DNA of 64,000 nucleotides from the NCBI GenBank assembly GCA_000004985.1, contig GG738874.1. One strand, given 5' to 3'. Position 1 is the first letter of the stretch. Each line of letters starts with the position of its first letter. The translations under genes were made by a program, and so were the position numbers. This DNA is from Naegleria gruberi (taxonomy: Eukaryota). The notes below the pieces were generated by a model. That model worked only from the letters and a program-made list of their open reading frames with translations. It searched no databases and had not been told where the DNA came from. Below, in pieces: positions 5,194-64,000 of this stretch.

Positions 5194-5198
5194 ATTCT

Positions 5199-6529: not shown

Positions 6530-6874
6530 ATGGCGGGAAAAGCTGTGAACGAATGTTTCTTCCCCATTTCGTTCACTATTGAGCAAAAGGAACTGAAAAA
6601 CTCGTCGACACCAGATGTGGTGGTGGCAAAAAAGCGCAGAAAAAAACGACACAAATATATATCAGGTGCATATCAAAGGTTGTTTGATTTTGAAACCAAC
6701 TTGTTCACTCGCTTTTTATCAATTGTCTTACCAAATGATGAAGATTTGAAAATAGTCCAGTGGTCATATATCCTTAGTGTCATTGTATTCCATCTAGTCT
6801 TCCAATTTATTTTACCGTGTTACCTCGCTTGCAAAGTGGAAGAAAAAGATATTTTGCAAGGGAAGCTATTGTGA
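6530..6874 (+). CDS. Small hypothetical ORF (114 aa, one hydrophobic segment) in the divergent intergenic region. It may not be a gene.
   Basis: Real ATG at 6530 but no recognisable domain. It sits between the starts of two divergently transcribed genes. Confidence 0.15.
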   Translation: MAGKAVNECFFPISFTIEQKELKNSSTPDVVVAKKRRKKRHKYISGAYQRLFDFETNLFTRFLSIVLPNDEDLKIVQWSYILSVIVFHLVFQFILPCYLACKVEEKDILQGKLL

Positions 6875-21500: not shown

Positions 21501-23761
21501 AACTAATAGGCCATGGATACTCAAATAACATGAAGGTATTTACAAAATTTTGAGTGGCTCTAACATTTCTTAGAGCAGAATAAGGAGAAATACTTGGTTG
21601 ACAAACTTGTTGAAGGAAAGGCACTCCTGAAATTACTGCATCAGAGTAGTATGAACTCAGTGCTATGGAAGAAACAACAAGGCACAAGCAAACAAATATG
21701 TAGAGTAAACTAATTATAACTGTTGTAGAATTTGACCTTTGTGATGAAATTGCATTCTTGAAAATTTGCTCTTTCCTCATCTTGGGATTTTCAAATGCAC
21801 TTTCCATATCATCTTCATTTGGTTGTTCTTCTACTGGGAATAAGTATGGTTCAAAGTTGGCCTTGGTTTCGTGGAGAGGCATTACACGGTTAGTTCCTCT
21901 CTTATTACTAGTAGCATTACTAAACACAGAAGCTCTTCTCTTCTTTTTCATTTCCTCTTCTTCAATGGAGGAAGCTTCATTGTAATAGTATTGTGCTAAT
22001 TCTGAATTGAATTCAAAATTTTCCAAAAAATTTCCATATAATCTGAGAAGTGTCTTGTTATTCTTATTGTTGAAAATTAAATTTTGCAACGTATTTCTGC
22101 ATTGAGTGGTCAAAGCATAAATGGAACGATTAATCTTTTCAACAGATGAATAATTAATTCTCTCAGAGGCCATTTCTTTCCAAAAGTTTCTGTGAAGAAC
22201 CAACAAGTTATTTTGATTCTTTTCTAGAATATCTAATTGAGAGGTTAATTCAAATGAATTGCTTGTTGATTTGGATTTTAAATTGAATGATTCAATTTGT
22301 TTCATTTTCTCTCTGATTTTAAATTGTTGGAAAATGTTTGGATGTTGTGATGAGGCTCTTTTCAATAAACTCATTGAAAAGACACAATTATTTGAATCCA
22401 ACCATTGTGTTTGAATCAAGAGTGCTGAATAGATTAATATATCAACATTATTGAATGATTTTTGATGAGCTGCTCCTCTTATGAAGGACATGGCCAATTC
22501 ACAATCTTTCAATATTTGATTATTTTCAGTAGTGCTATTATTGTTAGTTGGATGATTTGTTTAGTGTAGAATTGGATAGACATGATTTGATGAATAATTT
22601 CAATAATGATAACTTGTTGAAATCTTCAAACATGTAATATAAATTCATTGCATTCTTTTCAATCAAAGTAAGTGGAGAAATGGTTCCATAATTTTCATGA
22701 CCTTCAATTCCATTCAATATCATATTTCTTGCTCTCTTCAATTGTAAACGTTGATAAAATTCCATTGTCAATGTGCCAATAGTAAAGAAAATGAAAATAA
22801 GAGCAAGTGTCATTAATGAAAATGCAATACCCATCATTTCAAAATTGGCCCTCTCAGAATCTGAAGATGAAGATGTTATGGATGATGAATTGACCAATGA
22901 AGAAACGAGTGAACCAATACTCGCACCAACTCTTGCTGACATTACACCAAAATACAATGAATTTTCAAATCTTCTCAAACATGGCATGCTATAGAACACC
23001 AAAACACAACAAATCAGTGAAACTAGTAAATGAAAAATTGCTGAAATGAAAATATAATTGGTTGGTAATAATTGAGACAATACCAATTGTAAAATACTCA
23101 AAGAACCAATCAAACTGAAAATGAATGGATTTTCAATCAACATTGGAATTTGAGATTCTGGATTTGAATTGCAAGTTATGAATTCTGATAATGGAAAGAC
23201 AAAAGTGACCAAAACTAAAATTGAAATAATTGAGAGAATTAACATGATCAAATTGGTGGTATCATCAATACATGCTTGATTAGGATATCTCATCAATGAA
23301 GCAATCATATCAGTAGATTCATCAGCATCATTCATCATCATTGTTGAACTACAATTGAGAAAACCAAGCAACACATAAACAAACAACAATGAGAATGGTT
23401 TTACAATCAAAGCACAATAAAAAGTGAAGTATTTCAATTTCTTATAATACTTGTTCTGTTTGTTGGCTAATCGAATTGAAATTACATAAAAAACAGCCAT
23501 TATTAATATAATTGCAATAAAAACAGAACCAATTCCAACAACACCCAAATAAGGAATCATTCTTGCAATCAAAGTCGTTGGAAAATTAAACGCATCAATT
23601 AAAATATAACTTCCAACTTTTCCCCAATTAAAATCTGAAAGAGTTGTCATGAAAATTAAACACCACATCCAATAAACATTCACAAATAAAAAGATTGAAT
23701 AATTTTTCCATCCCTTCTTTGCCTCACAATCTTGTAAAGTGATAATACTATTGGTGAGCAA
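18514..23761 (-). CDS. Receptor-type adenylyl cyclase, tandem copy 2. It is disrupted. A 5-nt deletion relative to copy 1 breaks the frame between 22512 and 22544. The 5' end is separated from the body by N-gaps and an inserted duplicate block.
   Basis: The first ~885 nt (18514-19398) and the whole catalytic and N-terminal TM parts are nearly identical to copy 1. The extracellular middle part is clearly diverged. Alignment of 22500-22560 with 15640-15720 shows 'attgttagttggatgatt' in copy 2 versus 'attgttagtattattggatgatt' in copy 1. Confidence 0.7.
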
Positions 23762-23824
23762 TATCTTTGCCTGANNNNNNNNNNNNNNNNNNNNNNNNNN
23801 NNNNNNNNNNNNNNNNNNNNNNNN

Positions 23825-24895
23825 GTGGCAAATGTTGAGAGTGTACCATTAATATCAATCTTTTTGATAGACCAAGTTGGATTGTTTTCAACAAAGTAAA
23901 TATCACCAGTCATTAACGAAACTGTGACTGTGTTTGGATTGGTCAACTTGACAGTATTAGCTGGAAGGCCATCAGTGTTTTCATTAGATGATGAACCTGA
24001 TGCTGCAACACCAGCAATGGTTGATACAACAGTAGGAATGTTATCGAAAACTTCTTGTTCAGGATCAACAATAACACCAGTCCAATTATAAGTTAATTTT
24101 CTGATTAAATTATTTGCTCTGTCAATAATGATCAAATCTTGAGGTCTTTCATCTTCTACCAAATTTACAAGAGGTGTAGGAATTGTTCTAGGATAGAATG
24201 CAATAGCGTGTGGATGACCGATTGGTGTATCAAGTCCATTATAGCCATCACCAAGATTACCTCCAGCGATGGTTTCCAATTTGTATGTAGGAGCCAAGTT
24301 GTTATCTGAAGATGTTGCATTGATGGTAGTAGTACTAAACAACAACATCATCAAGAGAAGGCTACTAATAAATAAAGATAATAAATATTCGTGATGAGAA
24401 AAAGATTTTACTCTCCCTGCAGAGTCGAAAAACCTCTTCATTTTTGTGCCTTTTTTTCTTCTTGTCGATTCACTCTACTTGTGCATAAGAGAAGAATGTT
24501 TGATGGATGGGAAGTAATTTTGGAAGGGCAAGGGCAGAAAGTATGTTGTTTGATGCTAAGAAGTGATCTCCGCATTTTGATTTTGTTGGAGTAAATTTAA
24601 TTGGCTGATTATTTTTTGTTAGTATTCTTTTTGTCTTCCATTTACGAGGAAGATCTTCATGAAAGATTATTTATCTGATATTAAAGATAGCATTGTGATG
24701 AACAGATGAAAGCAACACATTTTTATTTTTTTTAAATTATGAATTGTTTATTCTTGTAACGGTAACTTTTACTGCCCGCCACGTTTAAAAAATGAAAAGA
24801 AAGCAAGAAACAAAAAACACCAAGAAATTATCTTCATCATCCAATGAAGGACCAACAAAAAAGTTGAAGCAATCCAACCTTCTCTCCCTATTCAA
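23825..24895. repeat. Diverged (~98-99% identical) duplicate of 30467..31525. That source region holds the 5' end of the NHL/EGF gene, the bidirectional promoter, and the first ~100 nt of the AP-endonuclease gene. The duplicate is flanked by N-runs and sits inside the 5' region of adenylyl cyclase copy 2.
   Basis: Direct sequence comparison shows scattered substitutions. A 3-nt indel gives SGSSSNENTDG here versus SGSSNENTDG in the source. Further small indels occur near 24640. Confidence 0.8.
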
Positions 24896-24945
24896 NNNNN
24901 NNNNNNNNNNNNNNNNNNNNNNNNNNNNNNNNNNNNNNNNNNNNN

Positions 24946-31076: not shown

Positions 31077-31425
31077 TTTTGTGCCTTTTTTTCTTCTTGT
31101 CGATTCACTCTACTTGTGCATAAGAGAAGAATGTTTGATGGATGGGAAGTAATTTTGGAAGGGCAAGGGCAGAAAGTATGTTGTTTGATGCTAAGAAGTG
31201 ATCTCCGCATTTTGATTTTGTTGGAGTAAATTTAATTGGCTGATTATTTTTTGTTAGTATTCTTTTTGTCTTCCATTTACGAGAAGATCTTCACGAAAGA
31301 TTATTTATCTGATATTAAAGATAGCATTGTGATGAACAGATGAAAGCAACACATTTTTATTTTTTTTAAATTATGAATTGTTTATTCTTGTAACGGTAAC
31401 TTTTACTGCCCGCCACGTTTAAAAA
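31077..31425. promoter_or_regulatory. Divergent (bidirectional) promoter region between the NHL/EGF gene (minus) and the AP-endonuclease gene (plus).
   Basis: Head-to-head real ATGs lie 349 nt apart. The GC-rich motif CTGCCCGCCACG sits 15 nt upstream of the APE ATG in an otherwise AT-rich spacer. Confidence 0.4.
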
Positions 31426-32538
31426 ATGAAAAGAAAGCAAGAAACAAAAAACACCAAGAAATTATCTTCATCATCCAATGAAGGACCAACAAAAAAGTTG
31501 AAGCAATCCAACCTTCTCTCCCTATTCAAGGCACCTTCATCACCACCAGCCTCATCGCAATCCTCTACTGATACTGACTCATTGACAATAGTAGAGGAGA
31601 GTAAAACCTTCTTGGGCACGAATAATAGCTATGAATTGAACAAGCAATTTAAATTCATCAGCTGGAATGTGAATGGAATATCTGCCGTCTTTAGGAAGGA
31701 ACCCAATTATTTGAAAATGTTGGTAGAGAAGGAAGAACCTACTTGTCTTTGTTTGCAAGAGACTAAGCTTTCTGAAGATGTAAAATTATCGGAAATGGCA
31801 CAATATAAATTCAAGAATTATATTGGACACTTTAACACTTCTAGGGCAAGAAAAGGATACTCTGGTACTGCTTGTTTTGTTCTAAAGCATGGTCCAAAAG
31901 TATTGAATGTCAAGTTTGGTATTGGTAAGGATAAGCATGATTTGGAGGGAAGAACTATTACTGTTGAATATGAAGACTTTTATTTGGTCAAGTAAGTTAA
32001 TATTTACACATGTGTAATCTCATGCCTTATTATTGAATGAATTGATTCAAAATGATAATCATTTTGTTGACATAATAATAGTACTTATTGTCCCAATTCT
32101 GGACAAAATCTCGATCGATTGGAATATAGAACAAAGGAATGGGATGTGGATCTACTCAAATACTTTGAAAAATTGGAAAAGAAAAAGCCAATCATTTGGG
32201 GTGGTGATCTTAATGTTGCCATTTCAGAGATGGATATTCATGATCCTCTTACATTATCCAAAAGTCCTGGTTTTACATTGGAAGAACGGCAATCTTCTCC
32301 TCTCGTAACAAAGGCCTCACCTCCTTTTATTGATTCTTTCAGATATAAAAATCCATATAAGAAACAATACACATACTATGGTTACATTAATGACATGAGA
32401 TTACAAAAGAAAGGATGGAGAATTGATTATTTTGTTTGTAGTAATTCTCTAAAAGACAAGATTGTAAATTCTTACATTCTTGAGGAATACTTTGGCAGTG
32501 ACCATCTACCAATTGGTTTAATCATTAATAAGGAGTAG
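31426..32538 (+). CDS. AP endonuclease, exonuclease III / APE1 family. Two exons, about 31426..31991 and 32082..32538, with a 90-nt phase-2 intron (GTAAGT...AATAATAG).
   Basis: Exon 1 carries ISWNVNGI, LCLQETK, GYSGTA and EGR. The spliced junction gives [26 protein letters not shown], which matches human APE1 [25 protein letters not shown]. Exon 2 carries IIWGGDLNVA, GFT.EER, GWRIDYF and GSDHLPI. Confidence 0.85.
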
Positions 32539-50950: not shown

Positions 50951-53152
50951 ATGTCTTCACTTGCTACCAGGGCACAACTGTATAATCCTGTTGGTATTTT
51001 TGTTTCATCAAATAATGAAGTTTATATTGCTGATTATAGTAATCATAGAATTAGAAAAATATTAAAAAATGGAAATATTGCAACAATCGCTGGAAAGGGA
51101 ACTTGTGGCTTCAGTGGTGATAATGGTCCTGCAACAAATGCACAAATTTATTATCCTTCTAGTGTTTTTGTTTCATCAAATAATGAGGTTTATATTGCTG
51201 ATCAAAGTAATCACAGAATTAGAAAAATATTAGAAAATGGAAATATTGTAACAATTGCAGGGAATGGAATTGGTGGCTTCAGCGGTGATAATGGTCCTGC
51301 AACAAATGCACAAATTTATTATCCTTATAGTGTTTTTGTTTCATCAAACAATGTAGTTTATATTGTTGATTATGGTAATAATAGAGTTAGAAAAATACTA
51401 GGGAATGGAAATATTGTAACAATTGCAGGAAATGGAACTTCTGGATTCAGTGGTGACAATGGTCCTGCAACAAATGCACAACTAAATAATCCTGTTGGTG
51501 TTTTTGTTTCATCAAATAATGAAGTTTATATTGCTGATCAAAGTAATCACAGAATTAGAAAAATATTAGAAAATGGAAATATTGTAACAATTGCAGGGAA
51601 TGGAACTGGTGGATTCGGTGGTGACAATGGTCCTGCAACAAATGCACAACTATATATCCCTTATAGTGTGTTTGTTTCAAACAATGAAGTTTATATTGTG
51701 GATTATGGTAATAATAGAATTAGAAAAATATTAGGGAATGGAAATATTGTAACAATTGCAGGGAATGGAACTTCTGGATTCAGTGGTGATAATGGTCCTG
51801 CAACAAATGCACAACTGAATAGGCCTTCTAGTGTGTTTGTTTCAAACAATGAAGTTTATATTGCTGATCTTAATAACCATAAAATTAGAAAAATATTAGA
51901 AAATGGAAATATTATAACAATTGCAGGAAATGGAACTAAGGGATTCAGTGGTGATTCACCATTTGATATTAGAATGTATCCTCATATTGGAAATAACTTA
52001 TTTACTGGAAGTAGTATCTTGTATTCTAAAATACAAGTTCATAATTTGTGCAAACATTCAAGAGATCAATTATTTGGATTGCAAATTTATGGATTCATTC
52101 CATTCATTGAGAAAATTTCACCACAGTTTAGTAATATTTTGAAGAATGAAAAAATACTTTGTTTGATGAGTTCATCACAACAAGAAATTATTCAAAAATT
52201 AATTGACTCTTTGATATATGATAAAGATAAGGTAATGTTTAGCAAAGAAGAAACGTTGGATGTTTTATTCATTTTGGGTTTATTCAAGAATGGTGAATTT
52301 ATTGATTTGAAAAGATCATTGACAAGTGGGTTTGTGAACTCACTCACATTAGAAAATCTTCTTTTGAAATGGGAAACAATTGAGATTTTACTGAAAATTT
52401 GCAAGGAAGAATTCAATGTTCAAAATTACATTCTTGATCATTTGAATAACTATTGTATTGAATATGCTGTTGTTCAAATGAAAACCAAAGAAGGAAACGC
52501 CTTATTATCTACCCTTCCAATAATTATGAGAAATGGTGCTACCATATTTCCAAAATTGATCATTACTCAACCAACTGCAATTAATATTGAGGAAACAATT
52601 GAGATTAAACCACAAACAATTGAATCATTATATAATGACATGAAAACAAGTGATGTGAAAATCAAAATGGGACAAAACAAATACCTATATTGTCACAAAA
52701 CTGTATTGAGTTTTTCAAGTACATTCTTTAATGCACTTTTTGACAGCGGATCTTGTTTCAGTGATTTAAGTGATGACGGAGTATTCACACTAAACGAACC
52801 AGAAGATTTGGAATTATTGGAAATTGTGATTAAATATTGTTATGGAATTTCAATTGACAAAATTGATCCTGTTAAAAGTATGGGATTACTTGATATGGCA
52901 ATGAAACATGAAATTCCATATCTGGTTGATTATTGCAAGAATAGCTTTAATCTATCTATTGATAATTACTTTAATATGCTTGAAGTATGTGAAAATTATT
53001 TTGATTTACAACTATTTGAGCCATGTTTCAGAGAATTTGTCAAATTTAGCATTGCCAACAGAAAACAACTTTTCAGTGATCGCGATAGAATTTCCAAATT
53101 ACCTGAAAAAGTGTTGCAAGAAATGGTCTTTTCGTTTTCTCAGGACTTTTGA
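50951..53152 (+). CDS. NHL-repeat (6 units) plus BTB/POZ domain protein of 733 aa. It has no signal peptide, starts mid-NHL-unit, and may be a subtelomeric chimeric gene.
   Basis: The NHL units are near-identical 55-aa repeats (NGNIVTIAGNGTSGFSGDNGPATNAQLNNPVGVFVSSNNEVYIADQSNHRIRKILE). The C-terminal BTB spans KYLYCHKTVLSFSSTFFNALFDSG...LELLEIVIKYCYGISI...MGLLDMAMKHEIPYLVDYC. Confidence 0.6.
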   Translation: MSSLATRAQLYNPVGIFVSSNNEVYIADYSNHRIRKILKNGNIATIAGKGTCGFSGDNGPATNAQIYYPSSVFVSSNNEVYIADQSNHRIRKILENGNIVTIAGNGIGGFSGDNGPATNAQIYYPYSVFVSSNNVVYIVDYGNNRVRKILGNGNIVTIAGNGTSGFSGDNGPATNAQLNNPVGVFVSSNNEVYIADQSNHRIRKILENGNIVTIAGNGTGGFGGDNGPATNAQLYIPYSVFVSNNEVYIVDYGNNRIRKILGNGNIVTIAGNGTSGFSGDNGPATNAQLNRPSSVFVSNNEVYIADLNNHKIRKILENGNIITIAGNGTKGFSGDSPFDIRMYPHIGNNLFTGSSILYSKIQVHNLCKHSRDQLFGLQIYGFIPFIEKISPQFSNILKNEKILCLMSSSQQEIIQKLIDSLIYDKDKVMFSKEETLDVLFILGLFKNGEFIDLKRSLTSGFVNSLTLENLLLKWETIEILLKICKEEFNVQNYILDHLNNYCIEYAVVQMKTKEGNALLSTLPIIMRNGATIFPKLIITQPTAINIEETIEIKPQTIESLYNDMKTSDVKIKMGQNKYLYCHKTVLSFSSTFFNALFDSGSCFSDLSDDGVFTLNEPEDLELLEIVIKYCYGISIDKIDPVKSMGLLDMAMKHEIPYLVDYCKNSFNLSIDNYFNMLEVCENYFDLQLFEPCFREFVKFSIANRKQLFSDRDRISKLPEKVLQEMVFSFSQDF
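51000..51950 (+). repeat. DNA-level tandem repeat with a ~165-bp period and ~6 copies. It encodes the NHL units of the 50951 gene.
   Basis: Blocks such as aatggaaatattgtaacaattgcagggaatggaa...ggtgataatggtcctgcaacaaatgcacaa recur almost verbatim. Confidence 0.75.
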
Positions 53153-54179
53153 GAGATTTCTGATTGATATCATTATGATCTATTAGTTTCGCTACGTAGT
53201 GGTGTAACTAGCAACCTGTTGATTTGCATGAATCTGAAAAATGCAGCACTATCAAGTGTTGTGTGTCATAATTATCGCACGATTAGCTGTGCCAATTTTA
53301 TTCCTTTCCATAAAAGTCGCACCGAGTGTCATTCCAAATTTATACCAATAAACAAAGTTTAGACATGTTATCATCTGCTACTTTCACCACGTATTCTTTT
53401 CACGGTTGGCATAAATGCCATCACACAACTCGAATAAACTTTGTATTTTATGTTTTAATTGCTGAAAATAATCATAGGAAATCTACTTTCAAGTTTGAAA
53501 CCATTGTTATGCTCGTAACGAAATTTCCATTCAGAGGGTGAAGTCAGATTCTGAAATTGTCAAGTATTTAATGAGAAATGCAATAATTTATAAGTTTCAA
53601 CTGGATCTGGTGAGATGACACATAATCTTTTCCCTTGGGGGTTTGGAAATACGAACCTCGGATACCTCTTACTCCAATCTCTTATTGATTTAAGATTTTG
53701 AAATTGTTTATTATTGAATTTTTATAAAGAGTGTTGACACGAATCAGAAGCTTCTTATTGTAACAACACTTGATAGAAGAATGGGAAAGTGGCTGCATTA
53801 ATTCAACATATTGAAAGTGAACAAGGTTCTCATCTCAAGATTTGGAACTCTTCTTCATGAAGAGGAGATTATTGGGTGGTGACTAGAGAGAAACATTTCC
53901 TTGTAGCTTTTCTACTAGTAATTAATTGACCAAGATGTTGACCTATAATATGGAAACACAATAAAATTCAATAATACTGATAAATCCAAGTAGTGAATAT
54001 GAATGGTAATCATAAATCTAAAATCCTTCCAGAAAAAATCATGGTTGGATCCATTTTGAGACTTTTGGAAGTCAACTTGGATGGCAATAGGGGAGCTTTT
54101 GATGTGGTTAACACATTTAAAGGGATCTGAATATTTTATTGGATGATATATGTCATCGCTGTACTTTATCACTAAATGT

Positions 54180-54300
54180 TGAATATCATGATGTTATAAT
54201 CTATATTTCCAATTTGGAAAATGTTGCAATGTCAATGTTTAATTGAAATATTGCCATCATACCAATAATTGATTTTATAATATAAAAATGGTATTATACA
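54180..54300. repeat. Subtelomeric dispersed repeat, family A. The second copy is at 56226..56340.
   Basis: Shared string ...caatttgg(a/g)aaatgt(t/c)gcaatgtcaat(g/a)(t/c)ttaattgaaatattgccat(c/a)ataccaat(a/t)attgatt... Confidence 0.7.
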
Positions 54301-54303
54301 CTA

Positions 54304-54952
54304 NNNNNNNNNNNNNNNNNNNNNNNNNNNNNNNNNNNNNNNNNNNNNNNNNNNNNNNNNNNNNNNNNNNNNNNNNNNNNNNNNNNNNNNNNNNNNNNNN
54401 NNNNNNNNNNNNNNNNNNNNNNNNNNNNNNNNNNNNNNNNNNNNNNNNNNNNNNNNNNNNNNNNNNNNNNNNNNNNNNNNNNNNNNNNNNNNNNNNNNNN
54501 NNNNNNNNNNNNNNNNNNNNNNNNNNNNNNNNNNNNNNNNNNNNNNNNNNNNNNNNNNNNNNNNNNNNNNNNNNNNNNNNNNNNNNNNNNNNNNNNNNNN
54601 NNNNNNNNNNNNNNNNNNNNNNNNNNNNNNNNNNNNNNNNNNNNNNNNNNNNNNNNNNNNNNNNNNNNNNNNNNNNNNNNNNNNNNNNNNNNNNNNNNNN
54701 NNNNNNNNNNNNNNNNNNNNNNNNNNNNNNNNNNNNNNNNNNNNNNNNNNNNNNNNNNNNNNNNNNNNNNNNNNNNNNNNNNNNNNNNNNNNNNNNNNNN
54801 NNNNNNNNNNNNNNNNNNNNNNNNNNNNNNNNNNNNNNNNNNNNNNNNNNNNNNNNNNNNNNNNNNNNNNNNNNNNNNNNNNNNNNNNNNNNNNNNNNNN
54901 NNNNNNNNNNNNNNNNNNNNNNNNNNNNNNNNNNNNNNNNNNNNNNNNNNNN
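54304..54952. other. Assembly gap (N-run).
   Basis: 649 N. Confidence 1.
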
Positions 54953-55035
54953 TTGAAATTGATAGAAACCTCATTATATGATGTTAATAACATATTGTAT
55001 CAATTTGGTATTGAATCTCATTGTCCTTAGGGTAC
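54953..55035. repeat. Subtelomeric dispersed repeat, family B. Other copies are at 56770..56862 and partly at 62040..62090.
   Basis: Shared string tgaaattgatag(a/g)aacctc(a/t)ttatatgatgtt(a/t)ataacatattgtatca(a/g)tttggtattgaatctcattgt(c/t)cttaggg. Confidence 0.7.
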
Positions 55036-55329
55036 TTCCCTATTGAGGTACCTTAATTGACCATCTCTATATTTAAATTGAGATATGATATTTATTTCAA
55101 TTGTATCATCATTTTGTAAATGATGGATAGTAGCCAAGTTGTGTATGGTGTAGAATTGGTATAACATTATTTTCAACATTTACAAGTGCAAATTCTCATC
55201 ATCTGTTGGACCAAAACAAAAAATTTTGTTATAGTGGTGGTTTTTTTACTAATATCCACATGTACAATATCGGAACAAGGAGATGCTCTATAGTTGTGCA
55301 GAATCATTCCACCAACAATAAGTTTTTGA

Positions 55330-55440
55330 AATATTCTTTTCTTAGTGAACTTTGCTTGCATCATAATTATTAAGGAATTGTTTCAAGTAGATGGAAAGTG
55401 TTCTAAAATTGCTGTAGATGGTAACATTCCGTTACAGCAT
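55330..55440. repeat. Local duplicated segment, family C. The second copy is at 55660..55745.
   Basis: Shared string cttgcatcataattattaaggaattgtttcaagtagatggaaa(g/a)tgtt(c)taaaat(t/c)g(c/a)tg(t/g)a(g/a)atggt. Confidence 0.7.
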
Positions 55441-55745
55441 AGTTAAATTCTAAGAAATGATTGAGATTTGCCATTTTTTCACAACTGTTATCTTTTAAAC
55501 AATGGTTGTCATCCAACCCGATGTAAAAACTGTTTGAAATTGTTTCAAATGAACGTGGAGTGGCTCAAACCCGTTGCTTCTTTTCAAAAAAGAGACTTAT
55601 CCAACCTTTTGAATGAGAATGTATTAACTATACAACAAACTGAAATTTATTTTTTCTTACTGAACTTTTCTTACTTCACAATTATTAAGGAATTGTTTCA
55701 AGTAGATGGAAAATGTTCCAAAATCGATGGAAATGGTGGCAGTCC

Positions 55746-55781
55746 TTAGGGTTTGGGGGTTTGGGGGTTTGGGTTTGGTTA
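55746..55781 (+). repeat. Short interstitial telomere-like tract, gggtttgggggtttgggggtttgggtttgg. A GC-rich motif (CCTGGCGCCGGACG) follows it.
   Basis: Direct reading of the sequence. The tract has the same orientation as the terminal (GGGTTT)n blocks. Confidence 0.7.
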
Positions 55782-56862
55782 ACCTGGCGCCGGACGATTT
55801 TGTCCAAAAATCCTGCCTTTCGACCTAAAATTTTTTAGCTATGCCTTCTACACATCTATTTCTATCTACCATATTAATATCTAGTCTTGTCTTTAAGTAA
55901 TTTTCGAGAAAATAGCCTCTGATTAGAGGTCATTTTTCAATAAAATTTTCCCGCGGAAATTTTCCCGCTTTTAGTATTACAGAACTTTGACAACCTTCAA
56001 ACTCAATCAAATTAGCAAATAATCTATTTATATAAAATGGAACCCTGCCATGTGATGTATACATCAATGTTACAAATAATTGTTTGTTGGATATATTTCT
56101 CTATGTAATATATTGAGTTTGATTGAATACTGTCAATAACAACACTATTAAACTTTTAAAAGGGACCTACATTTTATTTGATAATATCATTTATCTATGT
56201 ATTGTATCGACAAAAACCTGGTATCATGATTTTATTTTCTATATATTCAATTTGGGAAATGTCGCAATGTCAATACTTAATTGAAATATTGCCATAATAC
56301 CAATTATTGATTATATATCATGAAGCTGATATTATAGACTTTATTTGATGTATATATGAATATATGATTGAAATATTTCAATTTTGACTTTTCTTAATGT
56401 CATGGGTAGTTCACTAAGGTAGTCACTTTGCCATATGACAACTATCTAAGATGATATTGAAATCATTCCAAAATTGATATTATGATAGTATTTGATGATT
56501 ACAACATGATGAAAATGAAAAGGAATTGATTATTACAATATTTGACATGTAAGAATGTTACCTTTGATCAATTGGATAAGTAGCTTGACAGACATTCCAA
56601 TTATATAGATATTGATTTCTATTACTCAGATACTTTACAAATATCATTTATAAGAGTAGTGGTATGATATTCTGTTTTTTTATACTTCTTGATATTGACT
56701 TGTCATATTATCATGAGTAATTGCTTACATGGTTAAATGACATGTATACTGAATGATGTCCAAATGATATGAAATTGATAGGAACCTCTTTATATGATGT
56801 TTATAACATATTGTATCAGTTTGGTATTGAATCTCATTGTTCTTAGGGAACTCTCCTATTAA

Positions 56863-57458
56863 ATTTTGTAAAATCAACATGTACCTTCCTGTGGCGCCAT
56901 TTCTAATTATTATGATATGAAATTGAATTCTACATCATTATAGATCATCTATATCATGTTGGTAAAGTTTCAAAAGTGGTTCTTTTTCAAGATTTTATCC
57001 TTTTCATATCTAGTTGACCATGTGTGATTGAGGGAAGAAATCTATAAATATGAAAGTCAAAATAAATTTGATATTCGATGTTTACTCATTCAAATGGAAC
57101 ATTTTCATATCAGGGTTCAATATGTTTTGATGAGAAACTCAAAAGTTATTGTTGACCTCTTTTACCTCACAACTTCCCTTTTCACTTGATACTTTTATAC
57201 CTACAGACTTGAACTTTTGAAATTTGATATGAAAGTGATTATAGATGTTGTTAATGATGATATATACTATATAATCTCATTAAAGGATTTTGAAATTATC
57301 ATTCTTCCTATGGTTTCATTTTAACAATTTTAATCTGACACTATTTATAAAGTTAATATTTTATAAATTGAAAAACTAAATATAACACGTTGTTCTACTC
57401 ATCATTTACAATCGAGGTGATATAAAATTTAATGATATTTGAATAAGTTTATAATTTN
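56863..57458. repeat. Subtelomeric tandem element, copy 1 (~600 bp). It runs into the N-gap.
   Basis: About 90% identical over its length to 62080..62668. Confidence 0.85.
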
Positions 57459-60400
57459 NNNNNNNNNNNNNNNNNNNNNNNNNNNNNNNNNNNNNNNNNN
57501 NNNNNNNNNNNNNNNNNNNNNNNNNNNNNNNNNNNNNNNNNNNNNNNNNNNNNNNNNNNNNNNNNNNNNNNNNNNNNNNNNNNNNNNNNNNNNNNNNNNN
57601 NNNNNNNNNNNNNNNNNNNNNNNNNNNNNNNNNNNNNNNNNNNNNNNNNNNNNNNNNNNNNNNNNNNNNNNNNNNNNNNNNNNNNNNNNNNNNNNNNNNN
57701 NNNNNNNNNNNNNNNNNNNNNNNNNNNNNNNNNNNNNNNNNNNNNNNNNNNNNNNNNNNNNNNNNNNNNNNNNNNNNNNNNNNNNNNNNNNNNNNNNNNN
57801 NNNNNNNNNNNNNNNNNNNNNNNNNNNNNNNNNNNNNNNNNNNNNNNNNNNNNNNNNNNNNNNNNNNNNNNNNNNNNNNNNNNNNNNNNNNNNNNNNNNN
57901 NNNNNNNNNNNNNNNNNNNNNNNNNNNNNNNNNNNNNNNNNNNNNNNNNNNNNNNNNNNNNNNNNNNNNNNNNNNNNNNNNNNNNNNNNNNNNNNNNNNN
58001 NNNNNNNNNNNNNNNNNNNNNNNNNNNNNNNNNNNNNNNNNNNNNNNNNNNNNNNNNNNNNNNNNNNNNNNNNNNNNNNNNNNNNNNNNNNNNNNNNNNN
58101 NNNNNNNNNNNNNNNNNNNNNNNNNNNNNNNNNNNNNNNNNNNNNNNNNNNNNNNNNNNNNNNNNNNNNNNNNNNNNNNNNNNNNNNNNNNNNNNNNNNN
58201 NNNNNNNNNNNNNNNNNNNNNNNNNNNNNNNNNNNNNNNNNNNNNNNNNNNNNNNNNNNNNNNNNNNNNNNNNNNNNNNNNNNNNNNNNNNNNNNNNNNN
58301 NNNNNNNNNNNNNNNNNNNNNNNNNNNNNNNNNNNNNNNNNNNNNNNNNNNNNNNNNNNNNNNNNNNNNNNNNNNNNNNNNNNNNNNNNNNNNNNNNNNN
58401 NNNNNNNNNNNNNNNNNNNNNNNNNNNNNNNNNNNNNNNNNNNNNNNNNNNNNNNNNNNNNNNNNNNNNNNNNNNNNNNNNNNNNNNNNNNNNNNNNNNN
58501 NNNNNNNNNNNNNNNNNNNNNNNNNNNNNNNNNNNNNNNNNNNNNNNNNNNNNNNNNNNNNNNNNNNNNNNNNNNNNNNNNNNNNNNNNNNNNNNNNNNN
58601 NNNNNNNNNNNNNNNNNNNNNNNNNNNNNNNNNNNNNNNNNNNNNNNNNNNNNNNNNNNNNNNNNNNNNNNNNNNNNNNNNNNNNNNNNNNNNNNNNNNN
58701 NNNNNNNNNNNNNNNNNNNNNNNNNNNNNNNNNNNNNNNNNNNNNNNNNNNNNNNNNNNNNNNNNNNNNNNNNNNNNNNNNNNNNNNNNNNNNNNNNNNN
58801 NNNNNNNNNNNNNNNNNNNNNNNNNNNNNNNNNNNNNNNNNNNNNNNNNNNNNNNNNNNNNNNNNNNNNNNNNNNNNNNNNNNNNNNNNNNNNNNNNNNN
58901 NNNNNNNNNNNNNNNNNNNNNNNNNNNNNNNNNNNNNNNNNNNNNNNNNNNNNNNNNNNNNNNNNNNNNNNNNNNNNNNNNNNNNNNNNNNNNNNNNNNN
59001 NNNNNNNNNNNNNNNNNNNNNNNNNNNNNNNNNNNNNNNNNNNNNNNNNNNNNNNNNNNNNNNNNNNNNNNNNNNNNNNNNNNNNNNNNNNNNNNNNNNN
59101 NNNNNNNNNNNNNNNNNNNNNNNNNNNNNNNNNNNNNNNNNNNNNNNNNNNNNNNNNNNNNNNNNNNNNNNNNNNNNNNNNNNNNNNNNNNNNNNNNNNN
59201 NNNNNNNNNNNNNNNNNNNNNNNNNNNNNNNNNNNNNNNNNNNNNNNNNNNNNNNNNNNNNNNNNNNNNNNNNNNNNNNNNNNNNNNNNNNNNNNNNNNN
59301 NNNNNNNNNNNNNNNNNNNNNNNNNNNNNNNNNNNNNNNNNNNNNNNNNNNNNNNNNNNNNNNNNNNNNNNNNNNNNNNNNNNNNNNNNNNNNNNNNNNN
59401 NNNNNNNNNNNNNNNNNNNNNNNNNNNNNNNNNNNNNNNNNNNNNNNNNNNNNNNNNNNNNNNNNNNNNNNNNNNNNNNNNNNNNNNNNNNNNNNNNNNN
59501 NNNNNNNNNNNNNNNNNNNNNNNNNNNNNNNNNNNNNNNNNNNNNNNNNNNNNNNNNNNNNNNNNNNNNNNNNNNNNNNNNNNNNNNNNNNNNNNNNNNN
59601 NNNNNNNNNNNNNNNNNNNNNNNNNNNNNNNNNNNNNNNNNNNNNNNNNNNNNNNNNNNNNNNNNNNNNNNNNNNNNNNNNNNNNNNNNNNNNNNNNNNN
59701 NNNNNNNNNNNNNNNNNNNNNNNNNNNNNNNNNNNNNNNNNNNNNNNNNNNNNNNNNNNNNNNNNNNNNNNNNNNNNNNNNNNNNNNNNNNNNNNNNNNN
59801 NNNNNNNNNNNNNNNNNNNNNNNNNNNNNNNNNNNNNNNNNNNNNNNNNNNNNNNNNNNNNNNNNNNNNNNNNNNNNNNNNNNNNNNNNNNNNNNNNNNN
59901 NNNNNNNNNNNNNNNNNNNNNNNNNNNNNNNNNNNNNNNNNNNNNNNNNNNNNNNNNNNNNNNNNNNNNNNNNNNNNNNNNNNNNNNNNNNNNNNNNNNN
60001 NNNNNNNNNNNNNNNNNNNNNNNNNNNNNNNNNNNNNNNNNNNNNNNNNNNNNNNNNNNNNNNNNNNNNNNNNNNNNNNNNNNNNNNNNNNNNNNNNNNN
60101 NNNNNNNNNNNNNNNNNNNNNNNNNNNNNNNNNNNNNNNNNNNNNNNNNNNNNNNNNNNNNNNNNNNNNNNNNNNNNNNNNNNNNNNNNNNNNNNNNNNN
60201 NNNNNNNNNNNNNNNNNNNNNNNNNNNNNNNNNNNNNNNNNNNNNNNNNNNNNNNNNNNNNNNNNNNNNNNNNNNNNNNNNNNNNNNNNNNNNNNNNNNN
60301 NNNNNNNNNNNNNNNNNNNNNNNNNNNNNNNNNNNNNNNNNNNNNNNNNNNNNNNNNNNNNNNNNNNNNNNNNNNNNNNNNNNNNNNNNNNNNNNNNNNN

Positions 60401-61945
60401 NNNNNNNNNNNNNNNNNNNNNNNNNNNNNNNNNNNNNNNNNNNNNNNNNNNNNNNNNNNNNNNNNNNNNNNNNNNNNNNNNNNNNNNNNNNNNNNNNNNN
60501 NNNNNNNNNNNNNNNNNNNNNNNNNNNNNNNNNNNNNNNNNNNNNNNNNNNNNNNNNNNNNNNNNNNNNNNNNNNNNNNNNNNNNNNNNNNNNNNNNNNN
60601 NNNNNNNNNNNNNNNNNNNNNNNNNNNNNNNNNNNNNNNNNNNNNNNNNNNNNNNNNNNNNNNNNNNNNNNNNNNNNNNNNNNNNNNNNNNNNNNNNNNN
60701 NNNNNNNNNNNNNNNNNNNNNNNNNNNNNNNNNNNNNNNNNNNNNNNNNNNNNNNNNNNNNNNNNNNNNNNNNNNNNNNNNNNNNNNNNNNNNNNNNNNN
60801 NNNNNNNNNNNNNNNNNNNNNNNNNNNNNNNNNNNNNNNNNNNNNNNNNNNNNNNNNNNNNNNNNNNNNNNNNNNNNNNNNNNNNNNNNNNNNNNNNNNN
60901 NNNNNNNNNNNNNNNNNNNNNNNNNNNNNNNNNNNNNNNNNNNNNNNNNNNNNNNNNNNNNNNNNNNNNNNNNNNNNNNNNNNNNNNNNNNNNNNNNNNN
61001 NNNNNNNNNNNNNNNNNNNNNNNNNNNNNNNNNNNNNNNNNNNNNNNNNNNNNNNNNNNNNNNNNNNNNNNNNNNNNNNNNNNNNNNNNNNNNNNNNNNN
61101 NNNNNNNNNNNNNNNNNNNNNNNNNNNNNNNNNNNNNNNNNNNNNNNNNNNNNNNNNNNNNNNNNNNNNNNNNNNNNNNNNNNNNNNNNNNNNNNNNNNN
61201 NNNNNNNNNNNNNNNNNNNNNNNNNNNNNNNNNNNNNNNNNNNNNNNNNNNNNNNNNNNNNNNNNNNNNNNNNNNNNNNNNNNNNNNNNNNNNNNNNNNN
61301 NNNNNNNNNNNNNNNNNNNNNNNNNNNNNNNNNNNNNNNNNNNNNNNNNNNNNNNNNNNNNNNNNNNNNNNNNNNNNNNNNNNNNNNNNNNNNNNNNNNN
61401 NNNNNNNNNNNNNNNNNNNNNNNNNNNNNNNNNNNNNNNNNNNNNNNNNNNNNNNNNNNNNNNNNNNNNNNNNNNNNNNNNNNNNNNNNNNNNNNNNNNN
61501 NNNNNNNNNNNNNNNNNNNNNNNNNNNNNNNNNNNNNNNNNNNNNNNNNNNNNNNNNNNNNNNNNNNNNNNNNNNNNNNNNNNNNNNNNNNNNNNNNNNN
61601 NNNNNNNNNNNNNNNNNNNNNNNNNNNNNNNNNNNNNNNNNNNNNNNNNNNNNNNNNNNNNNNNNNNNNNNNNNNNNNNNNNNNNNNNNNNNNNNNNNNN
61701 NNNNNNNNNNNNNNNNNNNNNNNNNNNNNNNNNNNNNNNNNNNNNNNNNNNNNNNNNNNNNNNNNNNNNNNNNNNNNNNNNNNNNNNNNNNNNNNNNNNN
61801 NNNNNNNNNNNNNNNNNNNNNNNNNNNNNNNNNNNNNNNNNNNNNNNNNNNNNNNNNNNNNNNNNNNNNNNNNNNNNNNNNNNNNNNNNNNNNNNNNNNN
61901 NNNNNNNNNNNNNNNNNNNNNNNNNNNNNNNNNNNNNNNNNNNNN
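57459..61945. other. Assembly gap (N-run). It probably spans further copies of the subtelomeric tandem element.
   Basis: 4487 N, flanked on both sides by copies of the same ~600-bp element. Confidence 1.
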
Positions 61946-62079
61946 TGAAAGTGAAAATAAACTTGATTTTCTATCTCTACTCATCGAATGGAGCATTTTC
62001 ATGTATATATTGTTGGTTGAAGTGATGTATTTGATAGAGTTGGTCTGACTTGTCTTTCCTTTAAGTCAACCATAAAATA

Positions 62080-62668
62080 TCAACATTTACCTTCTCATGA
62101 TACCATTTCTGATTTTTAGGACATGAAATTGAATTCTATATCATTATAGATCATGTACATCATTTTGGTAAAGTTTTAATAGGTGGTCCTTTTTCAAGAT
62201 TTCATCCTTTTCATCCCTAGTTGACCATGATGGTTGAGGGAAGAAATCTTTAAATATGAAAGTTAAAATAAATTTGATATTCGATGTTTACTCATCAAAT
62301 GGAACATTTTCATATCAGGTTTCAATATGTTTTGATGAGAAACTCAAAAGTTATAGTTGACCTATTTTACCTCACAACTTCCCTTTTCACTCTATACTTT
62401 TATACCTACAGAGATGAACTTTTGAAATTTTATATGAAAGTGATTATGAATGTTGTTAACGATGATATATACTATATAATCTCATTAAAGGATTTTTAAA
62501 TTATCATTCTTCATATGGTTTCATTTATGAAATTTTAATCTGACATTATTTACAAAGTTAATATTTTATAAATTGAAAAACTAAATATACTACGTTGTTC
62601 TACTCATCATTTCCAATCGAATGATATAAAATATTATGATATTTGAATAAGTTTATAATTTTGGGCTA
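62080..62668. repeat. Subtelomeric tandem element, copy 2. It is preceded at 61946..62080 by a partial copy and is followed directly by telomere repeats.
   Basis: Aligns to 56863..57458. The piece at 61946-62040 aligns to an internal part of the element (57040-57135), which indicates a head-to-tail array. Confidence 0.85.
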
Positions 62669-63076
62669 GGGTTTGAACGTTGGGTTTAGAAGAATTCTGG
62701 GGGTTGGGTTTGGGTTTGGGTTTGGGTTTGGGTTTGGGTTTGGGTTTGGGTTTGGGTTTGGGTTTGGGTTTGGGTTTGGGTTTGGGTTTGGGTTTGGGTT
62801 TGGGTTTGGGTTTGGGTTTGGGTTTGGGTTTGGGTTTGGGTTTGGGTTTGGGTTTGGGTAGGGTTTGGGTTTGGGTTTGGGTTTGGGTTTGGGTTTGGGT
62901 TTGGGTTTGGGTTTGGGTTTGGTTGGGTTTGGGTTTGGGTTTGGGTTTGGGTTTGGGTTTGGGTTTGGGTTTGGGTTTGGGTTTGGGTTTGGGTTTGGGT
63001 TTGGGTTTGGGTTTGGGTTGGGTTTGGGTTTGGGTTTGGGTTTGGGTTTGGGTTTGGGTTTGGGTTTGGGTTTGGG
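62669..63076 (+). repeat. Telomere-type hexamer array (GGGTTT)n of ~65 units. It begins with degenerate units (gggctagggtttgaacgttgggtttagaagaattctggggg). A few variant units occur (GGGTAGGGTTT, GGTTGGGTTT). An N-run at 63077-63126 truncates it.
   Basis: Direct reading. The G-rich strand runs 5'->3' toward the window end. Confidence 0.9.
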
Positions 63077-63449
63077 NNNNNNNNNNNNNNNNNNNNNNNN
63101 NNNNNNNNNNNNNNNNNNNNNNNNNNTTGAATCAGGTTGATTTGCATGCAATATGAATAAGTAACATTATCAAGAGTGATTATTCACCAATTAAATAATC
63201 AATATTCAATAATCGGTTTGATTTCAATCAATAGCTTGATCAACAAGCTATGGATTAATATTCCAGTAATTAACGGCAGTCTATTTTTAAATTTAATCAA
63301 AGACCATATATAGTATCTTGACTTTTATGATCTGGAAACTATCTAGACGTGTTCTATTAGACGGTGGGCAGTGCCATGTATTCGTTGTTCCAACCAAATT
63401 TTTTTAGAGTCGAGCCAATTTTGTTAATATTTTAATATTATTTATTCTT

Positions 63450-63560
63450 CTGATGATATTTCGTCACCACTTTATTCATCACTTCCACTGTCTGACCCAG
63501 CTTGACTTGTAAATTTTTTAGCCTGACCGGCTCGACTTGGAAATTTCGCAAGTTCTGCAT
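63450..63560 (+). repeat. Three degenerate ~25-bp tandem units, (c/g)agc(t/c)(t/c)ga(c/g)tt(g)(t/g)aaattt, in the unique telomere-associated spacer.
   Basis: cccagcttgacttgtaaatttttta / gaccggctcgacttggaaatttcgc / ctctggctcggctttgaaattttta. Confidence 0.5.
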
Positions 63561-63639
63561 AAAATGCCTCTGGCTCGGCTTTGAAATTTTTACTTTGGGT
63601 TTGGATTAGAGTTGTTTTGATTTGTTACTTCGGGTTTGG

Positions 63640-64000
63640 GTTTTGATTTGTTACTTCGGGTTTGGGTTTGGGTTTGGGTTTGGGTTTGGGTTTGGGTTTG
63701 GGTTTGGGTTTGGGTTTGGGTTTGGGTTTGGGTTTGGGTTTGGGTTTGGGTTTGGGTTTGGGTTTGGGTTTGGGTTTGGGTTTGGGTTTGGTTGGGTTTG
63801 GGTTTGGGTTTGGGTTTGGGTTTGGGTTTGGGTTTGGGTTTGGGTTTGGGTTTGGGTTTGGGTTTGGGTTTGGGTTTGGGTTTGGGTTTGGGTTTGGGTT
63901 TGGGTTTGGGTTTGGGTTTGGGTTTGGGTTTGGGTTTGGGTTGGGTTTGGGTTTGGGTTTGGGTTTGGGTTTGGGTTTGGGTTTGGGTTTGGGTTTGGGT
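63640..64000 (+). repeat. Second (GGGTTT)n telomere-type array. It runs to the end of the window and is preceded by degenerate units (gggtttgggttttgatttgttacttcgggtttggg).
   Basis: Direct reading. Same orientation as the first array. Confidence 0.9.

What the first reader, a model, noticed from the sequence alone, without database searches (positions are those of the whole stretch)
53200..64000. Chromosome-end architecture: dispersed repeats, head-to-tail ~0.6-0.7 kb satellite, and two (GGGTTT)n blocks oriented toward the end
Protein-coding density drops to zero after 53152. Repeat families A, B and C recur, and one short tract recurs interstitially (55746-55781). An element of ~600 bp is present at 56863-57458 and 62080-62668, with a partial copy at 61946-62080. 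Its arrangement implies a tandem array hidden in the 4.5-kb N-gap. The array ends in degenerate then regular GGGTTT hexamers with the G-strand 5'->3' toward the window end. That is the polarity expected for a right-arm telomere. TTTGGG is not the common TTAGGG unit. A pure G3T3 array is unusual: Paramecium mixes G4T2 and G3T3, and Tetrahymena uses G4T2. It could therefore help place the organism. The second block, after a 50-nt N-run and ~500 bp of unique DNA, is either a nested telomere or a second chromosome end scaffolded onto the first.
Basis: seen in the sequence. Interest (0 to 1): 0.6.

Follow-up and report, generated by a model that had tools for sequence, protein, structure and literature searches.

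The report
Naegleria gruberi TTTGGG telomere and subtelomere
This is the gene-free tail of a Naegleria gruberi draft-genome scaffold, ending in the TTTGGG telomere repeat already reported for this amoeba; the "hidden satellite" is not shown by the sequence, and the doubled telomere is probably an artefact of how small contigs were strung together.

Summary
The core observation holds. Two (GGGTTT)n arrays lie at 62700-63076 and 63658-64000, with about 60 copies each at 97-98% purity. The G-strand points to the window end, and there is none on the other strand or in the 53 kb of genes. The last ORF is 100% identical to a Naegleria gruberi predicted protein on a 401,612-bp scaffold. Fulneckova et al. 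2013 already named TTTGGG as the candidate N. gruberi telomere from this assembly, so the main point is known.

The rest is an ordinary gene-free subtelomere built from four small contigs:
- a duplicated ~0.7-kb unit (A+B);
- a 105-bp repeat C whose second copy stops exactly at a 36-bp interstitial telomere tract;
- a ~590-bp element E in two copies (90.7% identical).

E2 runs straight into the telomere. E1 ends on the last base before the 4.5-kb gap.

The "head-to-tail satellite" is not supported. The "partial copy" is a 57-nt internal fragment followed by 73 unrelated bases, and no tail-to-head junction exists.

Nested telomere versus second end cannot be settled here. A 99.4% duplicate contig also sits between 50-N gaps elsewhere in the window, which favours a scaffolding artefact.

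The parts
50951..53152 (+). Last gene before the end: NHL-repeat/BTB protein, 733 aa
   Evidence: Pfam NHL, TEN_NHL and BTB. It is 100% identical over 733 aa to 'predicted protein [Naegleria gruberi]' on a 401,612-bp scaffold.
53153..54303 (.). Gene-free proximal subtelomere (end of contig 1), GC 32%
   Evidence: No ORF above 85 aa and no Pfam hit. Composition.
54116..54302 (+). Repeat A, copy 1; ends at the contig end
   Evidence: 78% identical over 188 nt to 56156-56340.
54304..54952 (.). 649-N gap, probably hiding the ~430 nt that separate A and B in the second copy
   Evidence: N run. A'-B' spacing in contig 2. The content of the gap is an inference.
54954..55044 (+). Repeat B, copy 1; starts at the contig start
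   Evidence: 91% identical over 91 nt to 56770-56860.
55327..55430 (+). Repeat C, copy 1
   Evidence: 84% identical over 105 nt to 55641-55745.
55641..55745 (+). Repeat C, copy 2; its homology ends exactly where the interstitial telomere tract begins
55746..55781 (+). Interstitial telomere-like tract (TTAGGG, TTTGGGGG x2, TTTGGG, TTTGG), same polarity as the terminal arrays
56156..56340 (+). Repeat A, copy 2
56770..56860 (+). Repeat B, copy 2; directly abuts E1
56870..57457 (+). Element E, copy 1 (~590 bp); its last base is the last base before the 4488-N gap
   Evidence: 90.7% identical over 589 nt to 62076-62661.
57458..61945 (.). 4488-N scaffold gap, content unknown
61946..62002 (+). 57-nt fragment matching an internal part of E (positions 189-246), followed by 73 unrelated nt
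   Evidence: 85% identical; z=17 against shuffles.
62076..62661 (+). Element E, copy 2; the telomere-adjacent copy
62662..62699 (+). Degenerate telomere junction (GGGCTA, GGGTTT, GAAC, GTT, GGGTTTA, ..., GGGGGTT)
62700..63076 (+). Telomere array 1: GGGTTT x25, GGGTA, x10, GGTT, x15, GGGTT, x9, then GGG and the gap
   Evidence: TRF score 712. Unit decomposition.
63077..63126 (.). 50-N placeholder gap
   Evidence: The same size recurs at 23775-23824 and 24896-24945, around a redundant contig.
63127..63595 (+). Spacer U: no copy elsewhere in the window, no ORF of note. Its first ~50 nt resemble 53218-53259.
   Evidence: The 43-nt local match has z=7.4.
63596..63657 (+). Degenerate junction with a 26-bp unit (GTTTTGATTTGTTACTTCGGGTTTGG) x2.4
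   Evidence: TRF.
63658..64000 (+). Telomere array 2: GGGTTT x22, GGTT, x24, GGGTT, x9, then GGGT and the window end
   Evidence: TRF score 665. Unit decomposition.

Best explanation
The window is the distal part of a 401.6-kb scaffold of the Naegleria gruberi draft (Sanger, scaffolded) genome. Bases 53153-64000 are a chromosome-end region.

Telomere. (TTTGGG)n is the telomere repeat of this amoeba, with the G-rich strand running 5'->3' outward. It is presumably made by telomerase copying a CCCAAA-type RNA template; that step is inferred, not shown.

Subtelomere. Proximal to the repeat lies a gene-free, AT-rich subtelomere of locally duplicated blocks. The ~590-bp element E is a telomere-adjacent sequence whose 3' boundary is the telomere junction.

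Interstitial tract. The 36-bp tract at 55746-55781 sits exactly where repeat C' is cut off. It is most simply the scar of an old break healed by telomere addition. A further subtelomeric block (A'-B'-E-telomere) was later joined onto it by recombination or break-induced replication.

Assembly. The region consists of four small contigs of 1.1 kb (the gene-free tail of contig 1), 2.5 kb, 1.1 kb and 0.87 kb, linked only by mate pairs. The 874-bp contig (U plus the second array) behind the 50-N placeholder most likely belongs to another chromosome end or to the other allele of this end, not to a nested telomere.

Sub-probabilities:
- N. gruberi chromosome end with TTTGGG telomere: ~0.9
- E is a telomere-adjacent repeat rather than a tandem satellite: ~0.7
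- the second array is a scaffolding artefact or an allele: ~0.55
For: Organism. The last ORF is 100% identical over 733 aa to an N. gruberi predicted protein on a 401,612-bp scaffold. The gene content fits: two PAS-adenylate cyclases, two G-alpha, two RGS and NHL/EGF proteins, as long ORFs in the standard code at GC 33%.

Telomere. There are two arrays of about 60 units at 97-98% purity, on one strand only, with the G-strand toward the end and none in the 53 kb of genes. Both have degenerate proximal junctions. Fulneckova et al. 2013 found TTTGGG as the candidate telomere of N. gruberi by the position and orientation of arrays in the genome assembly (PMC3622300).

Subtelomere. No ORF above 93 aa and no Pfam hit after 53152. 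GC falls to 26-28%. Repeats A, B, C and E are confined to the last 10 kb.

E as a telomere-adjacent element. E2 runs without a break into TTTTGGGCTAGGGTTTG. E1 is homologous up to its very last base, which is the last base before the N gap.

Healed-break scar. C' homology stops at 55745 and the telomere-like tract starts at 55746, in the same polarity as the terminal arrays.

Scaffolding. Contig 4 is 874 bp, about one Sanger read. The only other 50-N gaps in the window flank a 1,071-bp contig (23825-24895). That contig is a 99.44% duplicate of 30463-31529 and interrupts the 5' end of a cyclase gene. So small redundant contigs are demonstrably interleaved behind 50-N placeholders in this assembly.
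Against: - The terminal position is inferred from an assembly. No reads, Bal31 data or long-read data are available here, and Fulneckova et al. themselves say experiments are needed.
- I could not check other N. gruberi scaffold ends, because the genome is not retrievable with these tools.
- I could not verify that base 64000 is the scaffold end.
- A real nested structure (array, 0.5 kb, array) is not excluded. The interstitial tract at 55746 shows that telomere tracts can become internal at this very end.
- Both arrays carry the same order of variants and stop 57-58 nt after a GGGTT unit. I cannot explain this with confidence.
- Telomerase and its template were not examined.
Confidence: 0.78

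Rival explanations
1. Truly nested telomeres on one chromosome. An internal array of at least 377 bp follows E2, then about 0.5 kb of U, then the real terminal array. This would arise by sequence capture (break-induced replication, end-joining or retroelement addition) onto an existing telomere.
For: The scaffolder did place contig 4 distal to contig 3, in the same orientation. A smaller internalised tract at 55746-55781 shows the process has happened at this end.
Against: The link is only a 50-N placeholder. The other 50-N gaps in the window bound a redundant, misplaced 99.4% duplicate contig. Contig 4 is the size of a single read. U has no poly(T)/poly(A), no ORF and no retroelement signature. 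The gap hides the decisive proximal junction.
Confidence: 0.22
2. E is a ~0.6-0.7-kb satellite arranged head-to-tail, and the 4.5-kb gap hides about 6-7 more copies that end at the telomere.
For: There are two E copies in the same orientation on either side of the gap, and an E-related fragment at the right edge of the gap.
Against: No tail-to-head junction is present. The 130 nt upstream of E2 are a 57-nt internal E fragment plus 73 unrelated nt. The sequence upstream of E1 is repeat B', which is unrelated to that upstream of E2. E1 ends on the exact base where E2 meets telomere repeats. That is expected if E's 3' end is a junction to other sequence; in a tandem array the contig break could fall anywhere.
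Confidence: 0.15
3. The GGGTTT arrays are internal microsatellites with no end function.
For: Only that terminal position is not proven from a draft scaffold.
Against: Strict single-strand polarity, position distal to all genes, degenerate proximal junctions, a canonical TxGy unit, and an independent assembly-wide survey that found a terminal pattern convincing enough to list TTTGGG for N. gruberi.
Confidence: 0.03
4. A ciliate (Paramecium-like) macronuclear chromosome end, since G3T3 units occur in Paramecium telomeres.
For: Paramecium MAC telomeres are mixtures of TTGGGG and TTTGGG (bioRxiv 10.1101/2025.11.06.686955).
Against: No TTGGGG units are present. ORFs up to 1848 aa are open in the standard code. 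One protein is 100% identical to an N. gruberi protein.
Confidence: 0.01

Closest known systems
Candidate TTTGGG telomere of Naegleria gruberi (Fulneckova et al. 2013, Genome Biol Evol 5:468; PMC3622300)
   Same: Same organism, same assembly and same repeat unit, inferred in the same way from the position and orientation of arrays in scaffolds.
   Different: Nothing essential. That paper gives only the motif. The junctions, element E, the interstitial tract and the contig structure described here are extra local detail.
Paramecium macronuclear telomeres (random mix of TTGGGG and TTTGGG)
   Same: They contain the G3T3 hexamer, with the G-strand outward.
   Different: Paramecium mixes G4T2 and G3T3 because of misincorporation at one template position. 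Here 117 of 117 regular units are G3T3 and no G4T2 unit occurs. The organism is unrelated.
Yeast X - interstitial TG1-3 - Y' - telomere organisation, and human subtelomeric duplicons bounded by short (TTAGGG)n tracts (from my own knowledge, not checked here)
   Same: Duplicated subtelomeric blocks are separated by a short internal telomere tract of the same polarity as the terminal array. A discrete element lies directly next to the telomere.
   Different: There is no sequence relationship. E has no ORF, whereas Y' encodes a helicase. The copy number of the blocks across N. gruberi chromosome ends is unknown.
Chlamydomonas reinhardtii subtelomeres (tandem ~850-bp 'Sultan' elements capped by a 'Spoiler' next to the telomere; from memory, search found no paper)
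   Different: Tandem repetition, the defining feature there, is not seen here.

Membership tests
Telomerase-type telomere repeat array | Tandem array of a short (5-8 nt) T/G-rich unit | tested here: met
   GGGTTT x63.5 and x57.7, 97-98% matches. 117 perfect units.
Telomerase-type telomere repeat array | G-rich strand runs 5'->3' toward the chromosome end | tested here: met
   All arrays and the interstitial tract are on the + strand, distal to the last gene and toward the window end. None on the - strand.
Telomerase-type telomere repeat array | Physically terminal on the DNA molecule (Bal31-sensitive; reads end in it) | not testable with these tools
   Only a scaffolded draft is available. It is not even certain that base 64000 is the scaffold end.
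Telomerase-type telomere repeat array | Same repeat at most or all chromosome ends of the organism | not testable with these tools
   Other N. gruberi scaffolds could not be fetched. The published survey reports a convincing terminal pattern.
Telomerase-type telomere repeat array | Rare or absent inside gene-bearing DNA | tested here: met
   No GGGTTTGGG or CCCAAACCC in 1-53152. None in a 22-kb internal N. lovaniensis locus (weak control).
Telomerase-type telomere repeat array | Telomerase RNA template matching the unit | not tested
   No telomerase RNA or TERT was sought. The Rfam scan of the window found nothing.
   No E-tail/E-head junction. Upstream of E2 lie a 57-nt internal fragment and 73 unrelated nt; upstream of E1 lies repeat B'.
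   Two full copies 5,206 bp apart (by the gap estimate). The gap content is unknown.
Telomere-associated sequence / subtelomeric duplicon | Discrete repeat whose distal boundary is the telomere junction | tested here: met
   E2 abuts the degenerate telomere. E1 homology runs to the last base before the gap.
Telomere-associated sequence / subtelomeric duplicon | Shared by several chromosome ends | not testable with these tools
   A metagenome scan with the E-tail 24-mer gave only two contigs sharing that 25-mer and nothing else.
Telomere-targeting retroelement array (HeT-A/TART or Athena type) | Reverse transcriptase/Gag ORFs or poly(A)-derived tracts at telomere-proximal junctions | tested here: not met
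   No ORF above 93 aa, no Pfam hit, and no poly(T)/poly(A) after the interstitial tract or at the start of U. The junction of array 1 with U is hidden by the gap.

The most novel reading that the evidence does not exclude
The scaffold order is real. This N. gruberi chromosome end would then carry three telomere tracts in series: a 36-bp scar, an internal array of at least 377 bp, and the terminal array. They would be separated by non-coding blocks, recording repeated cycles of breakage, telomere healing and capture of new distal sequence. That would make Naegleria ends unusually dynamic and give a first picture of subtelomere turnover in Heterolobosea.
Probability: 0.2. Interest if true: 0.35.

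Novelty: already known. Interest (0 to 1): 0.14.

Why it matters
It matters little beyond bookkeeping. The TTTGGG unit for N. gruberi has been in the literature since 2013, though only as an in-silico candidate. The window adds two concrete subtelomere-telomere junction sequences (E2/telomere and U/telomere) and an interstitial tract. These could serve as anchors for telomere-PCR or long-read checks. It also flags that the last 10 kb of this scaffold, and the 23.8-24.9 kb contig, should not be trusted as a linear map. Telomere biology in Heterolobosea remains experimentally untouched in the papers I could search, so a wet-lab confirmation would still be a small but real contribution.

Tried and rejected
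1. Ciliate origin (Paramecium, Tetrahymena or Stentor type). Rejected: long ORFs in the standard code, no G4T2 units, and 100% protein identity to N. gruberi.

2. Fetching this and paralogous N. gruberi scaffolds through exact-protein look-ups (window ORF, P0003, P0005, P0006). All were 'not on record'. Two small subtelomeric ORFs were also not on record.

3. The single metagenome scan, using the conserved E-tail 24-mer. It returned two contigs (L002, L003) that share only that 25-mer and are otherwise unrelated.

4. The last protein search, using the (GF)n peptide encoded by the E2 junction plus telomere, to reach TTTGGG arrays in public contigs. It returned only imperfect G/F/L/V-rich proteins and no pure (GF)n.

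5. Sister-species check. The best N. lovaniensis homologue of the last gene lies mid-contig (132-154 kb of 309 kb), so it gives no chromosome end. That locus has no TTTGGG runs.

6. U as a diverged copy of the sequence just after the last gene. Only a 43-nt local match was found (z=7.4); the rest is unrelated.

7. Retroelement origin of E, U or the post-ITS block. No ORFs, no Pfam hits and no A/T tails.

8. Rfam and tRNA scans of the window found nothing.

9. Literature on Naegleria telomeres beyond Fulneckova 2013. Nothing was found, and the N. fowleri nanopore paper does not mention telomeres.


Full report
**What is in the sequence**

Reading 52800-58000 and 61800-64000 and running Tandem Repeats Finder confirm two long hexamer arrays. 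The first is (GGGTTT)n at 62700-63076, with 63.5 copies, 97% matches and score 712. The second is at 63658-64000, with 57.7 copies, 98% matches and score 665. A regular-expression count finds runs of two or more GGGTTT units only on the + strand and only from 55765 onward. It finds none for TTAGGG, TTTAGGG, TTGGGG, TTAGG, TTAGGC or TTTTGGGG. The 9-mer GGGTTTGGG and its complement are absent from the 53 kb of gene-bearing DNA. The N runs are at 54304-54952 (649), 57458-61945 (4488) and 63077-63126 (50), so the last 10.8 kb holds four contigs. After the stop codon at 53152 no ORF exceeds 93 aa, and none of eight tested ORFs hits Pfam. GC drops from 33% to 26-28%.

**Which organism**

The window carries long ORFs in the standard code. 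They include two PAS-domain adenylate cyclases, two G-alpha subunits, two RGS proteins, a teneurin-like NHL/EGF protein and an NHL-BTB protein. The NHL-BTB ORF at 50951-53152 is 100% identical over all 733 residues to 'predicted protein [Naegleria gruberi]'. That protein is encoded on a 401,612-bp scaffold, and paralogues of 77-83% identity lie on other N. gruberi scaffolds. The published N. gruberi assembly has 1977 contigs in 784 scaffolds, which matches the gap-ridden structure seen here.

**What is already known**

Fulneckova et al. 2013 (PMC3622300) searched 143 genome assemblies for TnAmGo-type arrays and judged them by position and orientation. [quoted passage not shown] They also state that experiments are still required to confirm terminal position. 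I found no later paper on Naegleria telomeres in the searchable library. The N. fowleri nanopore genome paper does not mention telomeres. The central finding is therefore real but already described.

**Anatomy of the subtelomere**

BLAST of the four contigs against the whole window, the repeat finder and MAFFT give the following order:
1. last gene
2. about 1 kb of sequence with no copy elsewhere in the window
3. A (54116-54302)
4. 649-N gap
5. B (54954-55044)
6. about 280 nt
7. C (55327-55430)
8. 210 nt
9. C' (55641-55745)
10. interstitial telomere tract (55746-55781)
11. 375 nt
12. A' (56156-56340)
13. 430 nt
14. B' (56770-56860)
15. E1 (56870-57457)
16. 4488-N gap
17. 57-nt E fragment (61946-62002)
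18. 73 nt
19. E2 (62076-62661)
20. about 40 nt of degenerate repeats
21. array 1
22. 50-N gap
23. U (63127-63595)
24. 62 nt of degenerate repeats containing a 26-bp unit x2.4
25. array 2

A and B are two parts of one ~0.7-kb duplicated unit. The first copy is broken by the 649-N gap. None of these repeats occurs in 1-53152.

**The satellite claim**

E1 and E2 are 90.7% identical over 589 nt. The claimed partial copy at 61946-62080 is only 57 nt of similarity (85%, z=17 against shuffles). It matches E positions 189-246, which is an internal piece. The next 73 nt match nothing. Upstream of E1 lies B', which is unrelated to the sequence upstream of E2. So there is no E-tail/E-head junction anywhere, and the arrangement does not imply a tandem array.

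One further detail argues against a tandem array. E1 is alignable up to ...AAGTTTATAATTT, its very last base before the Ns. At the same point E2 continues TGGGCTAGGGTTTGAACGTTGGGTTTAG... into the telomere. A contig break exactly at E's 3' boundary is expected if that boundary is a junction to something repetitive or variable, such as the telomere or differing continuations. In a tandem array a break could fall anywhere. I therefore read E as a telomere-adjacent element present in at least two copies. This is an inference; the gap content is unknown.

**The interstitial tract**

C' loses homology to C at 55745. The tract TTAGGG-TTTGGGGG-TTTGGGGG-TTTGGG-TTTGG begins at 55746, in the same polarity as the terminal arrays. 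A repeat copy truncated by a short telomere tract is the classic signature of a break healed by telomere addition. The A'-B'-E block distal to it would have been added later by recombination or break-induced replication with another end. The pattern is shown; the mechanism is inferred from what is established in yeast and human subtelomeres (my own knowledge).

**One end or several?**

The second array lies on an 874-bp contig, about one Sanger read, behind a 50-N run. Gap sizes in the window are 1, 50, 50, 1, 649, 4488 and 50, so 50 looks like a placeholder rather than an estimate.

A self-BLAST shows what such placeholders can hide. The only other contig bounded by 50-N runs is 23825-24895. 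It is a 99.44% duplicate of 30463-31529 and sits inside the 5' end of the second cyclase gene, 6.6 kb from its twin. It is almost certainly an allelic or redundant contig interleaved by the scaffolder.

By analogy, contig 4 (U plus telomere) is more likely another chromosome end, or the other allele of this end, than a nested telomere. A 43-nt match between the start of U (63136-63177) and the sequence 66 nt after the last gene's stop codon (53218-53259, z=7.4) hints at a paralogous or allelic origin, but it is too short to carry weight. I put the scaffolding explanation at about 0.55 and true nesting at about 0.2; the remainder is undecided.

**An unexplained detail**

Array 1 reads x25, GGGTA, x10, GGTT, x15, GGGTT, x9, then GGG and the gap. 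Array 2 reads x22, GGTT, x24, GGGTT, x9, then GGGT and the window end. Both show the same variant types in the same order and stop 57-58 nt after the last variant. This could have three causes:
- late-read base-calling deletions followed by quality trimming;
- the distal parts of both contigs being built from one pool of telomere-only reads;
- real shared variant repeats.

It also suggests, but does not prove, that base 64000 is a contig end and hence the scaffold end.

**Attempts to bring in related sequence**

- N. gruberi scaffolds could not be fetched.
- The one metagenome scan, with the E-tail 24-mer, hit two unrelated contigs that share only that 25-mer.
- A protein search with the (GF)n junction peptide found no telomere-derived ORFs.
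- The N. lovaniensis homologue of the last gene is mid-contig.

The checks 'same repeat at other ends' and 'E at other ends' therefore rest on the 2013 survey or remain open.

**Verdict**

This is a correct and careful observation of an N. gruberi chromosome-end region whose telomere unit is already published. The added structural claim of a hidden tandem satellite is not supported. The doubled telomere is more likely an assembly product. Interest is low. The only mildly novel possibility is a truly nested, repeatedly healed chromosome end.

Noticed in passing
window 23825-24895 versus 30463-31529: A 1,071-bp contig bounded on both sides by 50-N gaps is 99.44% identical to the 5' end and upstream region of the NHL/EGF gene 6.6 kb away. 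It interrupts the 5' end of the second cyclase gene. It is probably an allelic or redundant contig misplaced by the scaffolder.
   Followed up: partly
window 11687-16918 and 18539-23774 (- strand genes): Tandem duplicate PAS-domain adenylate cyclase genes, 90.0% identical over 5,263 nt, each with TmcB-type TPR, PAS and cyclase domains.
   Followed up: partly
window 62700-63076 and 63658-64000: Both telomere arrays show the same order of short variants (GGTT, then GGGTT) and both stop after nine further units, 57-58 nt later. Read-end artefact, a shared read pool or real shared variants: unresolved.
   Followed up: partly
window 63136-63177 versus 53218-53259: The first ~45 nt of spacer U resemble the sequence 66 nt downstream of the last gene's stop codon (43-nt local alignment, z=7.4 against shuffles). 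This hints that U comes from a paralogous or allelic gene flank.
   Followed up: partly
L001 (ENA metagenome assembly ERZ929261, contig k127_235142) versus window 5191-6556: An environmental metagenome contig is 99.4% identical at nucleotide level to the G-alpha gene, with about 200 extra nt just upstream that lengthen the ORF from 387 to 408 aa. This indicates a close N. gruberi strain in that sample.
   Followed up: partly
window 55940-55975: 'TTTTCCCGCGGAAATTTTCCCGCTTTT': two E2F-like TTTCCCGC boxes, one palindromic, in the gene-free block just distal to the interstitial telomere tract. The short stretch right after that tract (TTAACCTGGCGCCGGACG) is unusually GC-rich.
   Followed up: no
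window 50972-51955: The NHL domain of the last gene is a 168-bp unit repeated 5.9 times at 86% nucleotide identity, which points to recent internal repeat expansion. The family has 77-83% identical paralogues on other N. gruberi scaffolds, two of them very small (14 and 24 kb).
   Followed up: no
window 31426-31995: A 189-aa ORF has a weak Exo_endo_phos (endonuclease/exonuclease/phosphatase) hit (E=1e-5). Its start overlaps the region duplicated in the misplaced contig.
   Followed up: no
window 528-5193: Two adjacent ORFs (822 and 575 aa) are lysine-rich with 30-99-bp internal repeats and have no Pfam match.
   Followed up: no
L002 1808-1831 and L003 13136-13159: Two metagenome contigs (FWWM01017851.1, FWWL01007951.1) carry an identical ~100-nt stretch that includes an exact 25-mer match to the tail of element E. 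They show no further similarity to the window, so this is judged a chance match.
   Followed up: yes
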